Origin: an uncultured Ignavibacteriales bacterium
Lineage (GTDB): Bacteria; Zixibacteria; MSB-5A5; GN15; JAAZOE01
Direction: 5' to 3'
Assembly (NCBI GenBank): GCA_964611355.1
Contig: CAZSYD010000006.1
Span: 1 to 64,000, forward strand
Length of the DNA stretch: 64,000 nucleotides
The position numbers were made by a program. Shown piece after piece: positions 36,001 through 64,000 of this stretch (position 1 is the first letter of the stretch; every line of letters begins with the position of its first letter).

Positions 36001-39000
36001 GCGCTGCTCTTGCCGAATTTGAAGCCCGGCATGCTTCCAATATCGCCAAATCGGTGCGAACCCTGGAACGCAACGATCAGGCCTGGGAACGTTTAATGCT
36101 GGTGTATGAGCTCCAGATGCAACGCGTGGCTGAGGTTCTGGGGATCGAACTGCTGCCTTTCGATGCAGGGCCGCTGGTGGCGGCCGACAGCCTTGCGGCT
36201 GCGATCCGGTCGTTAAAATCGTCAGGCCGGGAGTCTAACGCAACCTTTGATAGTCTGTCTGTCCGTATGAAAGCCACCCTTTCGAAAACCGGCCGCATCA
36301 CTGATGAAGAGGATGCCATACGACTGGCTCAGATACTGGACGAACAGGTTGACAAACTTCTGGCTGAGAAAGAAACGCTCTCGATAGAAATGGCCGCGCG
36401 TGAGGAAGAGCTGGCCGGCCTCGAGAAGGAACATAAAGAAATTGCCGGTGAGCTTGACAAAAGGCTCGAAAAAGAAGAAAAAATCAAAACGGCCCGAAGT
36501 CTTCTTAACCCGTCGGAATGTGCCGTTATTCGTTCCCCTGCCGACGATATCGTTCTTCGTCTTTTCGGTCTGTCATTCGACGTCGGTTCGAGCGATATCA
36601 AGGACGAACATGTTCCTCTGCTGAAAAAGGTCGAGAAGGTTCTCGGTATGTTCCCTGAGGCCAAGCTGATGATTGAAGGACATACCGATAATCAGGGCGA
36701 TCTGGCGACCAACAAGCGGCTCTCGGAAAATCGGGCTTACGCGGTTATGCAGTACCTGCGCCAGTCCATGTCGATTTCGGCCGGACGTATTCAGTCGAGC
36801 GGTTACGGGCCGGACAAGCCCATCGCATCCAATAAAACGACCGAAGGCCGGGCCAAAAACAGGCGGATAGATATTATTATCATGCAATAATCGGTCAGAG
36901 GATCGGGGGCTGAGAAAATGCAGTCAGTCCGGGTTCGAGAACCTGAAATACGGGCAGGCGTCGCCCATTCCATATTCTATGCCTTAATCATTCCTATTTA
37001 TAAGCGCTTTTAATTATTGTCATTACAATCCGGCTCTTATACATTACAAAAGAGTTGTCGTAATTCCGGCAGAAGGAGGGGATAATGCCAAATCCGATCA
37101 GCCGCTATTTCCGATTCGAAACGTTGCAAACCAGCTTCAAACAGGAAACCATCGCAGGAGCCACCACCTTTTTCACTATGGCCTATATTATTATTGTCAA
37201 TCCCAAGATTTTAGAGGCGGCCGGAATACCGGTCGGGCCTTCAATGGTGGCCACTGTAATAGCCGCCGTCTTCGGCACGTTAGCTATGGGCATTTACGCC
37301 CGGCGGCCGTTTGCAATTGCGCCGTATATGGGCGAAAATGCCTTTATCGCCTTTACGGTCGTAGGCGTTCTCGGGTACAGTTGGCAAACCGCTTTGGGCG
37401 CAATCTTTATAGGCGGAGTATTGTTTACGCTAATCAGTGTTCTTGGTATCCGCGCCTGGCTGGCCCGCGCCATTCCCGAATCATTGAAAATCGCCTTTGC
37501 AGTCGGAATCGGGTTGTTTCTTACCTTTATCGGCCTGAATGAAACCGGCGTGGTTACTCTCGGGGTCCCCGGTGCGCCCGTGCATGTCGGCAATCTGCAA
37601 AGCACGGCGGTTATTCTATCCATAATTTGTTTCTTTCTAATCGGATTTCTAATGATACGAAAAATAAACGGTGCTCTTCTGATTGGAATTCTTGTTGTTA
37701 CTTTCCTCTCGTTTATATTCGGAATCAGCCAATTGCCCGAAAACTTGATGAGCCTGCCTCCCGGCATCTCTCCTGTATTTTTACAGCTTGATATAGTTGG
37801 CGCCCTGCAATGGAGCTTTTTCCCGATCATCCTGACCGTTCTGGTAATGGACTTTGTCGATACTACCGGAACGCTTCTCGGTTTGGCCTACAAATCCGGT
37901 TTTCTCGACGAAGACGGTCAATTGCCGGAGATCGAAAAGCCGATGGTATGCGATTCGACGGCAACAGTTGTCGGCGCTTTGGTCGGAACGACTACCACCG
38001 GTACATTTATCGAATCGGCTGCGGGAATCGAGGCCGGCGGAAGATCCGGTTTCGCATCGGTGATTACAGCCGGGCTGTTTTTGCTTACGCTGTTTTTTGC
38101 GCCGTTTCTCACTGCCGTTCCGCCCTGCGCTTACGGAGCGGCTTTGATTATGGTCGGGTTGTTGATGATATCGCCCATCGTTAAGTTAAAATTTGACGAT
38201 TTGACGGAGTCGATACCGGCTTTTCTCGTAGTTATCCTTATGAGCTTCACCTATAATCTTGGCATCGGAATGACGGCCGGTTTCGTCGCTTTTCCGCTGG
38301 TGATGCTGTTTTCCGGCCGGGCCGGAGAGGTTCATACGGGGATGTGGATTCTGGCTGCTATATCAGCTCTCTTTTTCATCTTTTACCCGTATTAGTTGAC
38401 CGAACGGGATGGCGATGATCCCGGTTTTTGGTGGACAAATCGCGAATTTTGGCTATATTTCAACGGATAAGGGATAANNNNNNNNNNNNNNNNNNNNNNN
38501 NNNNNNNNNNNNNNNNNNNNNNNNNNNNNNNNNNNNNNNNNNNNNNNNNNNNNNNNNNNNNNNNNNNNNNNNNNNNNTTAGGGAGGAACCATTATGCTTC
38601 ACCCATCGGGCCGGTCAAGCAAAGGCCGATATATCCACGCCATATGGCTATCCGTTATAGCGGTAATTTTCATAAATGCAACCCCTGTTCTGGGACAGTT
38701 AAATACCGAAGACATAGAAGTCCTTCGAGAGCTTGCTCGGGAGGAAGGCTGGACCTTTACGGTCGGCGAGAACCCGGCCACGAAATACCCGCTCGAGAAG
38801 TTATGCGGCCTGGTGGTGCCTGACAATTGGCAAGCTACGGCGCGATTTGATCCGATTACACCGGCCAAGGATATCCCCGTATCTTTTGACTGGCGCGATT
38901 CAAATGGCTGCACGCCGGTGAAAGCCCAGGGCAATTGCGGTAGTTGCTGGGCATTTGCCACCGTAGGGGCTTTTGAATGCAACATCAGGATTAAGGATCA

Positions 39001-63000: not shown

Positions 63001-64000
63001 TAAGGGCGACAAGCGCCTGCCCGGAGAAATCCCAGAAGAAGAACGCGATTACTATCTGGAACGAAAATATCCCAGTTTCGGTAACCTTGCCCCCCGCGAT
63101 ATTTCATCGCGCTCCGCCAAGGAGGTCTGTGATGATGGATGCGGAGTTGGTTCATCCGGATATAGTGTGTACCTGGACTTCGCCGAAGCTATTGAGCGCT
63201 TGGGTCGAGAGGTGATTACCGAACGATATGGAAATCTCTTTGAAATGTACCATCTCATAACCGATGAAGACCCTTACAAGGTCCCAATGCGCATATATCC
63301 AGCCGCCCATTATGCTATGGGCGGGTTATGGGTCGATTACAATCTGATGAGCAATATTCCCGGCCTCCATGTTATCGGCGAGGCCAACTTCTCTGACCAC
63401 GGTGCCAACCGCCTGGGAGCTTCGGCTTTGATGCAAGGGTTGGCCGACGGTTATTTCGTCCTGCCGTATACGATTGGCGACTACTTCGCCCGGGTAGGGG
63501 CACAGAGTATCTCTACCGACCGCTCCGAGTTTGGCGAGGCCGAAGAAGCCGTCGCCGCGCGCATAAAGAAACTTCTGTCGGTTAACGGCGAACGCACGGT
63601 CGACTCTTTCCACAAGGCGCTGGGTGAAATAATGTGGGAGAAAGCCGGCATGGCCCGCAACGAAACCGACTTGAAAGAAGCGGTCGAACAGATTACGGCG
63701 CTGAGGAATGAATTCTGGCAGAATGTCAGGGTTATAGGGAGCACTAACGAAATGAACCAGACGCTGGAGAAAGCGGGCCGCGTGGCTGATTTCCTCGAGT
63801 TCGCCGAGATCTTCTGCTATGACGCTCTCAACCGGGAAGAGTCCTGCGGCGCTCACTTCCGCGAGGAGTATCAGACTGAAGATGGAGAAGCCCTGCGCAA
63901 CGACAAGAAGTTCGCATACGTCGCCGCATGGGAATACAAGGGCGATGGTGTCAAACCGGAACTGCATAAGGAGGAGCTCGAGTTTGAGAATGTTGAGCTG

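What a model noticed while it worked through the whole genome (the two positions that open the first line are those of the whole stretch)
38594..64000. Cohesin-dockerin system loaded with peptidases and anchored by T9SS sorting domains
At least 24 proteins carry a dockerin module, 9 of them peptidases by Pfam (papain C1 x4, gingipain C25 x2, C10, S8, M14) and none a glycoside hydrolase, while four of five cohesin proteins carry a T9SS C-terminal sorting domain and one carries cohesin plus dockerin. I read it as a cell-surface 'proteolysome': a protease-only cellulosome analogue hung on the outer membrane through T9SS-attached single-cohesin anchors. New: a dedicated protein-degrading cohesin-dockerin machine in a Gram-negative phylum.
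Evidence so far: pfam.tsv rows listed in call 76 (24 Dockerin_1, 5 Cohesin; anchors g00187, g00188, g00889, g00931; adaptor g00463); BLASTP finds about ten further dockerin-like C-termini incl. M14 g00476, C25 g01830, M23 g01902. Seven of the dockerin genes (eight with g00476) cluster on C6:38594-77234. Dockerin_1 in 229/284, Cohesin in 101/284 Zixibacteria. No paper with Zixibacteria+dockerin or dockerin+proteolysome. The finding spans contig positions 38594 to 77234; this window holds only 38594 to 64000 of it.
(Added by a program. Inside this text positions count along the whole contig: contig position 1 is position 1 of the stretch shown here. "Call 12" and the like, gene names such as g00115 and contig names such as C1 are that model's own, and its searches are not shown. 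The text may have been shortened before it was handed on; [...] marks where a part breaks off. The agent that wrote the report below was given it as the finding of a first reader that could run no searches.)

Follow-up and report, generated by a model that had tools for sequence, protein, structure and literature searches.

The report
Surface cohesin-dockerin display system, protease-rich
This Zixibacteria-like bacterium tags about 37 secreted proteins, a third of them protein-cutting enzymes and none a recognisable sugar-cutting enzyme, with a docking module that most likely plugs into socket proteins fixed to the cell surface, a known kind of machine in an unusual make-up.

Summary
The genome has 37 dockerin-bearing ORFs plus one fragment. 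Five lie in the window and nine on contig C6. Thirteen of the 37 are peptidases: C1 x4, C25 x3, M14 x2, C10, S8, M23 and an HExxH family. None is a recognisable glycoside hydrolase.

Seven proteins carry Pfam cohesins, and up to 15 carry cohesin-like modules by family-specific profiles. Eleven of the 15 end in a T9SS C-terminal domain. AlphaFold models of the small anchor and of the window's cohesin+dockerin adaptor match solved cohesins, with target TM-score up to 0.85. SprA, PorU and PorV are present; GldK, GldL and GldM were not found.

The trait is phylum-wide: dockerin in 279 of 285 genomes and cohesin in 266 of 285. A closed relative shows 14 peptidases and 0 GH among 58 dockerin ORFs.

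"Protease-only" is overstated, because about two thirds of the cargo is adhesin-like or unknown. Binding is untested, and the route by which dockerin cargo without a T9SS domain crosses the outer membrane is unexplained. I rate it a new variant of a known kind; the closest case in print is a Cloacimonadota complex (PMC8542988).

The parts
21031..23457 (+). 808-aa secreted protein with no known N-terminal domain and two tandem dockerins (about nt 22951-23154 and 23182-23388). It lies upstream of the finding's start but is part of the same set.
   Evidence: Pfam Dockerin_1 35.2 bits. The own-genome dockerin profile gives two domains of 74.4 and 79.7 bits. The Atlas lead only reached unnamed Bacteroidota clusters.
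38594..41386 (+). 930-aa papain-family (C1) cysteine peptidase with a C-terminal dockerin.
   Evidence: Peptidase_C1 174.2 bits at aa 94-299 and Dockerin_1 32.2 bits at aa 867-919. The N-terminus looks like a signal peptide. The CGSCWAF, NHAV and NSWG motifs are present (the motifs are recalled from memory).
41189..41383 (+). Dockerin module of the C1 peptidase: two calcium-loop/helix repeats, with one Cys before repeat 1 and one near the C-terminus.
   Evidence: Alignments.
45666..47819 (+). 717-aa adaptor: N-terminal cohesin, an internal dockerin-like helical module, beta-sandwich domains, and a C-terminal dockerin.
   Evidence: Cohesin 31.4 bits and Dockerin_1 35.5 bits. AF2 model with pLDDT 77.8. 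The top Foldseek hits are cohesins, probability 1.00, target TM-score up to 0.76. Among the listed homologues, 24 rows carry both a cohesin and a dockerin Pfam family.
45774..46391 (+). Cohesin-fold module of the adaptor (aa 37-242), with insertions relative to the Pfam model.
   Evidence: The family profile cohB also finds this module in five CTD proteins of the genome.
46401..46604 (+). Internal, divergent dockerin-like EF-hand pair (aa about 246-313) directly after the cohesin.
   Evidence: BLASTP alignment to the same arrangement in C13:52156. Helices at 263-290 and 302-313 in the model. Weak own-profile hit of 10.9 bits.
47622..47816 (+). C-terminal dockerin of the adaptor.
   Evidence: 98.6 bits.
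54372..57767 (+). 1131-aa streptopain-family (C10) cysteine peptidase with Ig-like domains and a C-terminal dockerin (nt 57570-57764).
   Evidence: Peptidase_C10 152 bits at aa 205-391 and Dockerin_1 33.3 bits. The GCVATA and THAIVCDG motifs are present (the motifs are recalled from memory).
58045..59982 (+). 645-aa protein with thrombospondin type-3 repeats and a C-terminal dockerin (nt 59785-59979). Its N-terminal 470 aa are of unknown function.
   Evidence: TSP_3 33.1 bits and Dockerin_1 25.0 bits. There is a weak Atlas lead to BNR/sialidase-like beta-propellers: score 0.90 with 158-163 shared features, which the tool treats as only a lead. No PDB sequence match was found.

Best explanation
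This is a cell-surface cohesin-dockerin display system of a Zixibacteria-like diderm bacterium.

Proposed mechanism:
1. About 37 Sec-exported proteins end in a highly uniform two-repeat, calcium-loop dockerin.
2. A set of 7 to 15 proteins carries cohesin-fold modules. Most of these end in a type-A T9SS C-terminal domain.
3. These cohesin proteins are predicted to be exported through SprA and fixed to the outer surface by the PorU/PorV attachment pair.
4. Dockerin cargo then plugs into these cohesins.
5. The window's cohesin+dockerin protein acts as a second-tier adaptor.
6. Anchors that carry their own dockerin-like module may cross-link.

Cargo. The only recognisable enzymes are peptidases, 13 of 37. 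They include endopeptidases (C1, C10, C25, S8, HExxH), M14 carboxypeptidases and an M23. The rest are adhesin-like or binding modules, or unknown. The system therefore most likely holds a protein-degrading enzyme set together with substrate- or particle-binding proteins at the cell surface. Released peptides would feed downstream peptidases encoded nearby (S46, M3).

Shown: the domains, the folds, the motifs, the genes present, and the phylum-wide conservation.

Inferred: cohesin-dockerin binding, surface location, peptidase activity, and how CTD-less cargo crosses the outer membrane.
For: Dockerins:
- 35 PF00404 matches, 32 over the cut-off.
- 39 frames hit by the own-genome profile.
- In the alignment of 31, G7, D19, G31, P34, D52, G64 and P67 are invariant, and both DxNxD loops are nearly invariant.
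- Most of the 31 aligned dockerins end 8-15 aa before the stop codon; 5 of the 31 lie further in.
- Signal-peptide-like N-termini in the great majority of the full-length ORFs, judged by eye.

Cohesins:
- Pfam matches in 7 proteins.
- The small anchor C14:49527 was modelled at pLDDT 90.6. It matches C. thermocellum CipA cohesin 1aoh with target TM-score 0.85 and rmsd 2.1 A, and many other cohesins at probability 1.00.
- The window adaptor model matches cohesins too.

CTDs:
- TIGR04183 scores 39.5 and 35.3 bits against a cut-off of 23 for the two small anchors.
- PF18962 or FlgD_ig at the extreme C-terminus of the other anchors.
- The anchor family is conserved at about 279 aa, with source names 'T9SS type A sorting domain-containing protein [Zixibacteria]'.

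T9SS machinery:
- SprA_N 91 bits.
- PorU 625.8 bits against a cut-off of 420.
- A PorV/PorQ-family protein encoded next to PorU, 254.4 bits against a cut-off of 90.
- 38 Por_Secre_tail matches in the genome.

Cargo:
- 13 peptidases and 0 GH among 37 dockerin ORFs.
- At the time of the test, peptidases were 12 of 31 dockerin ORFs against 4 of 40 CTD ORFs. Odds ratio 5.7, Fisher P 0.0085; paralogues are not independent.
- Catalytic motifs are present in the window's C1 and C10 peptidases.

Conservation:
- Dockerin in 279 of 285 genomes and cohesin in 266 of 285 genomes of the phylum.
- All 6 dockerin-less genomes also lack cohesin.
- The closed relative G207 has 66 dockerin matches. Among 58 ORFs scanned there are 14 peptidases (S8 x6, M14 x2, C25 x2, M1 x2, M64, C1), 0 GH and 3 cohesin+dockerin proteins.

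Context: Peptidase_S46 and Peptidase_M3 genes lie in the window.
Against: - No binding evidence of any kind was obtained.
- 24 of 37 dockerin ORFs are not peptidases, so a purely proteolytic role is not shown.
- 10 of the 37 have no recognised domain and could hide other enzymes. One window protein (58045-59982) has a weak Atlas lead to BNR/sialidase-like propellers. One database relative carries dockerin plus BNR_2 (P0004).
- Dockerin cargo lacks a CTD, and no dedicated T2SS was seen. The only full secretin sits in a pilM-N-O-secretin (type IV pilus-like) operon. Arrival of cargo at the surface is therefore unexplained.
- GldK, GldL and GldM were not found. No control genome rang for GldL, so this result is inconclusive.
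- 13 genomes of the phylum have dockerins but no Pfam cohesin, among them four near-complete genomes of one genus.
- In a biased sample of 44 of the 150 top-scoring dockerin proteins world-wide, only 3 were peptidases.
Confidence: 0.6

Rival explanations
1. Hitch-hiking export. The cohesin-CTD proteins, above all the minimal 280-aa cohesin-linker-CTD family, act as trans-acting T9SS signal carriers. Dockerin-tagged cargo without a CTD binds them in the periplasm. It is then co-translocated through SprA and ends up surface-attached through the carrier's CTD processing.
For: - No T9SS CTD was detected on dockerin cargo apart from two dockerin proteins (C7:25728 and C38:19202) that carry both modules.
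- The only full secretin lies in a type IV pilus-like operon, so no obvious alternative outer-membrane route was found.
- The minimal cohesin-CTD protein is strongly conserved in length and sequence across many metagenomes.
- That the T9SS moves folded proteins is established knowledge and was not tested here.
Against: - There is no precedent that I know of for T9SS hitch-hiking (recalled).
- The secretin operon includes a GspH-like pseudopilin and could act as a T2SS.
- The genome is 96% complete, so a T2SS may simply be missing from the assembly.
- The 37 cargo proteins far outnumber the 7-15 carrier proteins.
Confidence: 0.12
2. The dockerin-like modules do not work mainly through these cohesins. 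They are calcium-binding stabilising or tethering modules for another receptor, such as the cell envelope, polysaccharide or mineral particles. The cohesin-like modules have other partners.
For: - 13 of 285 genomes have many dockerins but no Pfam-detectable cohesin.
- Dockerins far outnumber cohesins.
- The database holds proteins with up to 14 dockerin stretches, which fits a repeat or adhesive role.
Against: - All 6 dockerin-less genomes also lack cohesin.
- Cohesin and dockerin are repeatedly fused in one protein in this lineage.
- The dockerins are extremely uniform, with near-symmetrical repeats, as expected for a shared receptor.
- Family-specific profiles find further divergent cohesins that Pfam misses, so 'cohesin-less' genomes may simply be undetected cases.
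Confidence: 0.15
3. It is an artefact of annotation or chance: short EF-hand-like matches and Ig-like folds mislabelled as dockerin and cohesin.
For: Several Pfam scores lie close to the cut-offs, for example Dockerin_1 at 20-25 bits and one cohesin at 20.9 bits.
Against: - 31 full two-repeat modules align with 57% mean column identity.
- Own-profile scores of most full-length modules are about 63-116 bits; a few partial, truncated or internal weak matches score 10.9-46.2.
- Cohesin models match solved cohesins at target TM-score 0.75-0.85.
- The control genomes ring in only 2 of 14 for dockerin.
Confidence: 0.02

Closest known systems
Clostridial and ruminococcal cellulosomes (C. thermocellum CipA/OlpA/OlpC, R. 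flavefaciens ScaA-E)
   Same: Type-I-like two-repeat calcium dockerins sit at the C-termini of secreted proteins. The cohesin beta-sandwich fold is the same; the best structural matches are 1aoh, 3ul4, 4uyq and 5lxv. Adaptor proteins carry cohesin plus dockerin. The dockerin repeats are near-symmetrical.
   Different: - No glycoside hydrolase and no CBM was found on 37 dockerin ORFs here, nor on 58 in relative G207.
- No long multi-cohesin scaffoldin was found in this genome; the maximum is 2-3 cohesins per protein.
- Anchoring is by T9SS CTD in a diderm, not by SLH or sortase in a monoderm.
- Many of the dockerins have a Cys pair flanking the module.
Cellulosome-like complex proposed for Ca. 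Stygibacter (Cloacimonadota), PMC8542988 (abstract and passages read)
   Same: An uncultured lineage related to the FCB group. Dockerins sit on S8 and C25 peptidases. A cohesin protein carries a CTD for surface attachment. The proposed role is polypeptide degradation.
   Different: That system has a 3,755-aa scaffoldin with tandem cohesins and CBM2/CBM3, and it carries GH18 and GH57 enzymes. Here there are many small or medium cohesin-CTD anchors, no CBM or GH, seven or more peptidase families, a large adhesin-like cargo share, and phylum-wide distribution.
Dockerin-bearing peptidases of Ruminococcus flavefaciens FD-1, PMC2930009 (abstract and passages read)
   Same: Peptidase modules on dockerins within a cohesin-dockerin system, with many unknown and LRR-type non-catalytic cargo proteins.
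   Different: There peptidases are a small minority (16 peptidase modules among 222 dockerin proteins, 10 of them transglutaminase-like) beside a large GH, CE and PL set. Here they are 13 of 37 with no GH.
Porphyromonas gingivalis gingipains and other T9SS-attached surface proteases (recalled, not read here)
   Same: C25 peptidases at the surface of an FCB-group diderm. The PorU/PorV attachment pair is present, and the lifestyle is asaccharolytic and peptide-based, including an S46 dipeptidyl-peptidase.
   Different: Gingipains carry their own CTD. Here only 4 of 40 CTD ORFs are peptidases, and most peptidases carry a dockerin instead, so attachment would be indirect.
Non-cellulosomal cohesin-dockerin pairs (Archaeoglobus fulgidus 2xdh; Clostridium perfringens GH84C cohesin 2w1n)
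   Same: Cohesin-dockerin modules used outside cellulose degradation. Both appear among the structural matches.
   Different: Those are isolated pairs or toxin-complex links, not a family of some 37 cargo proteins with T9SS anchors.

Membership tests
Dockerin (type I, PF00404) | Two tandem segments of about 22 residues, each a calcium-binding loop (D-x-N/D-x-D ... D) followed by a helix | tested here: met
   31 modules were aligned and both loops are nearly invariant. 32 six-frame matches are over the Pfam cut-off. Helix pairs are seen in the adaptor model at aa 664-708.
Dockerin (type I, PF00404) | Calcium-dependent binding to a cohesin | not testable with these tools
   This needs a binding assay (ELISA, ITC or native gel, with and without EDTA).
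Cohesin (PF00963) | Sequence match over the family cut-off | tested here: met
   Six proteins are over the 24.1-bit cut-off and one is below it at 20.9 bits.
Cohesin (PF00963) | Nine-stranded jelly-roll beta-sandwich fold like solved cohesins | tested here: met
   The anchor model has pLDDT 90.6, target TM-score 0.85 and rmsd 2.1 A to 1aoh. The adaptor model has target TM-score 0.67-0.76 to several cohesins.
Cellulosome | Dockerin-borne glycoside hydrolases and other carbohydrate-active enzymes | tested here: not met
   No GH Pfam family on 37 dockerin ORFs or on 58 ORFs in G207. 10 of the 37 have no known domain.
Cellulosome | Scaffoldin with many cohesins and a cellulose-binding CBM | tested here: not met
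   The maximum is 2-3 cohesin modules in one protein, C2:97402. No CBM family was hit.
T9SS substrate (type A CTD) | TIGR04183/PF18962 domain at the extreme C-terminus, after a Sec signal peptide | tested here: met
   The small anchors score 39.5 and 35.3 bits against a cut-off of 23. Other anchors have PF18962 or the overlapping FlgD_ig/CHU_C at the C-terminus. CTD motifs are conserved in 33 homologues.
T9SS machinery | Translocon SprA/Sov, shuttle PorV and sortase PorU | tested here: met
   SprA_N 91 bits. PorU 625.8 bits, over the 420 cut-off. An adjacent PorV/PorQ-family protein scores 254.4 bits, over the 90 cut-off. The PorV equivalog model NF033710 scored below its cut-off (193 against 250).
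T9SS machinery | Trans-envelope motor and ring PorK/L/M/N (GldK/L/M/N) | tested here: inconclusive
   No match for GldM_1st, GldL or GldK. The genome is 96% complete, no control genome rang for GldL, and GldN was not searched.

The most novel reading that the evidence does not exclude
The minimal cohesin-linker-CTD proteins, conserved at about 280 aa across Zixibacteria, are trans-acting secretion carriers. Dockerin-tagged cargo with no T9SS signal of its own is loaded onto them in the periplasm. It is then carried, folded, through the T9SS translocon and left attached to the cell surface. The dockerin would then serve as a modular, exchangeable 'second-hand' T9SS export and anchoring tag for dozens of proteins.
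Probability: 0.1. Interest if true: 0.85.

Novelty: new variant of a known kind. Interest (0 to 1): 0.55.

Why it matters
Zixibacteria are widespread, uncultured sediment bacteria. Exported C25 and S8 peptidases assigned to them have been noted in sediment metagenomes (PMC6365825, passages read).

If their peptidases and binding proteins are assembled on T9SS-anchored cohesins, three things follow:
- Protein degradation in anoxic sediments would be partly cell-bound and organised, not carried out by freely diffusing enzymes.
- The cohesin-dockerin principle would be a general surface-assembly device of a whole diderm phylum (dockerin in 279 of 285 genomes), not a speciality of cellulose degraders.
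- The system poses a sharp, testable question about how CTD-less proteins reach the outer surface.

The very uniform dockerins and small cohesins would also be new orthogonal parts for surface display in Gram-negative hosts.

Tried and rejected
- Complex prediction. Complex prediction on the anchor cohesin (alignment A2, aa 26-188) with the dockerin alignment A1 returned 'no answer', score 0.12 against a mark of 0.32. I do not use it either way.
- Expression. The look-up of sequencing runs listed no RNA holder, which says nothing about expression.
- Word-indexed search with the dockerin region alone gave only 5 proteins and was too insensitive for a cargo census.
- Dockerin profile against 1.84 billion representatives gave 62,096 hits at E<=1e-3. 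The top 150 are dominated by multi-dockerin proteins. I scanned only 44 of those 150, chosen for a C-terminal dockerin and length over 500 aa. The result was 3 peptidases, 0 GH, 5 cohesin and 6 DUF7901. This is a biased sample and not a census.
- Unknown cargo. NCBIfam named only one of 17 further proteins as a peptidase. Two Atlas searches gave only leads. A PDB sequence search of the window protein 58045-59454 found nothing significant; the best hit had E 0.045.
- Peer et al. 2009 (PMC3035643) is not held, so what I say of it is recalled.
- Literature searches: Zixibacteria+dockerin gave 0 papers. 'Proteolysome' gave 1 unrelated paper. dockerin+Latescibacteria gave 2 irrelevant papers. dockerin+cohesin+T9SS gave 10 papers. 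dockerin+peptidase+gingipain+cohesin gave 3. dockerin+'type IX secretion'+peptidase gave 7. dockerin+non-cellulosomal+protease gave 30. Only PMC8542988 describes a comparable system. The supplements of that paper were not opened and may list more components.
- I considered and rejected a single operon or mobile island. The dockerin genes on C6 are all on the + strand but are separated by GatDE, DUF5916, LiaG-like and Sdh genes, and GC content is even across the window.

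
Full report
**What is in the window**

The window is the first 64 kb of an 84.4-kb contig (C6) of a 2.57-Mb genome in 110 contigs, 96% complete. Within the finding's coordinates four long + strand ORFs end in a Pfam Dockerin_1 module:
- 38594-41386: Peptidase_C1, 174 bits.
- 45666-47819: an N-terminal cohesin.
- 54372-57767: Peptidase_C10, 152 bits.
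- 58045-59982: thrombospondin type-3 repeats.

A fifth dockerin gene lies upstream at 21031-23457 and carries two tandem dockerins. Past the window, C6 continues with C25, M14, C25 and GEVED dockerin proteins at 65029-77234. At 80431-84423 lies a HYR/Big_9 protein with a cohesin-like module and a T9SS tail.

The dockerin genes are interleaved with unrelated genes: GatD/GatE, DUF5916, two LiaG-like genes and succinate dehydrogenase. This is therefore a loose cluster and not an operon. The clustering still far exceeds chance: 9 of 31 dockerin genes lie on 3.3% of the genome (P 4.7e-7), and 8 lie within 38.6 kb (P 1.5e-8).

**The dockerins**

Six-frame search gives 35 PF00404 matches, 32 over the cut-off. 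A profile built from the genome's own modules finds 39 frames. These are 37 dockerin ORFs, one 61-aa fragment, and one cohesin anchor with an internal weak match.

The 31 modules I aligned are strikingly uniform, with 57% mean column identity. Each has two near-identical repeats of the type GDANxDxxVNxGDAVYLxNYVF, joined by a GPxPxP linker. Most end 8-15 residues before the stop codon; five lie further in.

16 of 31 have a Cys just before repeat 1, and all 16 also have a Cys in the last 12 residues; 24 of 31 have that late Cys. A disulfide clasp is my inference from this. The great majority of the full-length ORFs start with a signal-peptide-like segment, judged by eye.

**The cargo**

Thirteen of 37 are peptidases: C1 x4, C25 x3, M14 x2, C10, S8 and M23, plus an MXAN_6640-family HExxH metalloprotease (218.6 bits, cut-off 140). 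The window's C1 and C10 keep their catalytic motifs (the motifs are recalled from memory).

One of the 37 is the cohesin adaptor. Thirteen carry non-catalytic or binding modules: TSP3 x2, FG-GAP x3, Big_9/PKD, Laminin_G_3, beta-propellers, NosD/beta-helix, BACON, GEVED and DUF7901. Ten have no recognised domain.

No glycoside-hydrolase family was hit in any of them. As a comparison group I scanned the CTD-bearing ORFs. Only 4 of 40 are peptidases (S8 x2, C25, M6) and again none is a GH. Peptidases are thus enriched on dockerins: 12 of 31 at the time of the test against 4 of 40, odds ratio 5.7, P 0.0085. Paralogues are not independent. The absence of GHs is a property of the organism's whole surface proteome, not of the dockerin set alone.

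**The cohesins and their anchors**

Pfam finds cohesins in seven proteins:
- C2:97402 (two modules, CTD).
- C2:96556 (254 aa, CTD).
- C13:52156 (CTD).
- C13:54590 (CTD).
- C14:49527 (282 aa, CTD).
- The window adaptor (dockerin).
- C2:59024, which is sub-threshold and has a lipobox-like N-terminus.

The 282-aa protein is signal peptide, cohesin, short linker and type-A CTD. Its family is conserved at about 279 aa in many metagenomes, with source names pointing to Zixibacteria. Its AlphaFold model (pLDDT 90.6) superposes on C. thermocellum CipA cohesin at target TM-score 0.85 and rmsd 2.1 A, and on dozens of other cohesins. The adaptor model (pLDDT 77.8) also matches cohesins, including a cohesin dyad.

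Profiles built from these two families find further cohesin-like modules that Pfam misses. One group is C13:49215, C6:80431, C14:16067 and C1:70969, all CTD proteins. The other group is C23:3837 and C23:2670, which are small CTD proteins, and C18:23875 and C21:17300. That makes up to 15 proteins, 11 with a CTD.

Several anchors and the adaptor carry a divergent dockerin-like EF-hand pair straight after the cohesin. In relative G207 the same position holds a canonical dockerin. The anchors may therefore cross-link or self-cap; this is inference.

**Secretion machinery**

SprA, PorU (625.8 bits against a cut-off of 420) and an adjacent PorV/PorQ-family gene (254.4 bits against a cut-off of 90) are present. 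So are 38 CTD matches.

GldK, GldL and GldM were not found. This is inconclusive, because no control genome rang for GldL and 4% of the genome is missing.

Apart from the two dockerin proteins that also carry a CTD, the cargo has no detected CTD. The only full secretin lies in a pilM-N-O-AMIN-secretin operon with a GspH-like pseudopilin. How cargo crosses the outer membrane is therefore open.

**Relatives**

Across 285 genomes of the phylum, dockerin is found in 279 and cohesin in 266, 255 over the cut-off. The six genomes without dockerin all lack cohesin. Thirteen have dockerins but no Pfam cohesin.

In the closed 2.72-Mb genome G207 (another family of the same class) there are 66 dockerin matches. 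I fetched 60 ORFs, dropped two very short ones and left two matches unfetched. Of the 58 scanned, 14 are peptidases (S8 x6, M14 x2, C25 x2, M1 x2, M64, C1) and 0 are GH. Eleven are SBBP propellers, 4 FG-GAP and 4 beta-helix, and 3 carry cohesin plus dockerin. The make-up of peptidases as the only recognisable enzymes beside many binding modules is therefore conserved.

**Interpretation**

The most likely reading (0.6) is a T9SS-anchored cohesin-dockerin display system. It would hold a diverse peptidase set and adhesin-like proteins at the cell surface. This fits a peptide-based lifestyle: S46 and M3 peptidases lie in the window.

It is not a cellulosome, since there is no GH, no CBM and no long scaffoldin.

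Rival readings:
- Hitch-hiking export on cohesin-CTD carriers (0.12).
- Dockerins that act through another receptor (0.15).
- Artefact (0.02).

**Novelty**

I found no paper that links Zixibacteria and dockerins. The closest published system is the Cloacimonadota complex with a CTD scaffoldin and both GH and peptidase cargo (PMC8542988). Dockerin-borne peptidases are also known as a minority in R. flavefaciens (PMC2930009).

What is new here is the make-up and the scale: many small T9SS-anchored cohesins, no carbohydrate-active cargo, seven or more peptidase families, and conservation across the phylum. I rate it a new variant of a known kind, interest 0.55.

Noticed in passing
window 41415-44802 (- strand): Archaeal-type Glu-tRNA(Gln) amidotransferase GatD (512 bits, cut-off 324) and GatE (492 bits, cut-off 456) are encoded side by side in this bacterial genome. 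By recall, GatDE is usually regarded as archaeal.
   Followed up: partly
window 46401-46604; also G000 C13:52156 (aa about 515-590) and C13:54590 (aa about 493-557): A divergent dockerin-like EF-hand pair sits directly after the cohesin in the adaptor and in CTD anchors. In relative G207 the same position holds a canonical dockerin (L134 and L164). Possible roles are self-capping or cross-linking.
   Followed up: partly
all dockerins of G000, e.g. window 41189-41383: Cys pattern: 16 of 31 dockerins have a Cys just before repeat 1, and all 16 also have a Cys in the last 12 residues. 13 of 31 have a Cys in the second calcium loop. A disulfide clasp is possible.
   Followed up: partly
G000 genome-wide; C10:4546-11388: SprA, PorU, PorV and about 40 CTD proteins are present, but GldK, GldL and GldM were not detected. 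The PorV-family ORF is 978 aa with a long N-terminal extension; the PorV domain spans aa 718-977.
   Followed up: partly
proteins P0246-P0395: The public protein library holds 62,096 representatives matching this dockerin profile at E<=1e-3. Some have up to 14 dockerin stretches in one protein. DUF7901 is a recurrent dockerin partner: 6 of 44 scanned, plus G000 C81:1899.
   Followed up: partly
window 17549-19717 (-) and 24694-26586 (+): Peptidase_S46 (dipeptidyl-peptidase, 729 bits) and Peptidase_M3 (oligopeptidase F) genes lie upstream of the dockerin cluster. They fit downstream peptide processing.
   Followed up: no
G000 C48:7129-8625 (- strand): Two adjacent small proteins (254 and 242 aa) carry the dockerin at the N-terminus, right after the signal peptide, instead of at the C-terminus. 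The rest of each protein has no known domain.
   Followed up: no
G000 C2:59024-59914: A 296-aa protein has a sub-threshold cohesin match (20.9 bits) and a lipobox-like N-terminus. It may be a lipoprotein-anchored cohesin.
   Followed up: no
window 47838-50471: An 877-aa DUF5916 protein starts 19 nt after the adaptor gene on the same strand. Its relation to the system is unknown.
   Followed up: no
window 38594-47819: This stretch is held, at a share of sampled words between 0.25 and 0.91, by 10 public DNA runs labelled salt marsh metagenome. The best holders may be the source sample.
   Followed up: no
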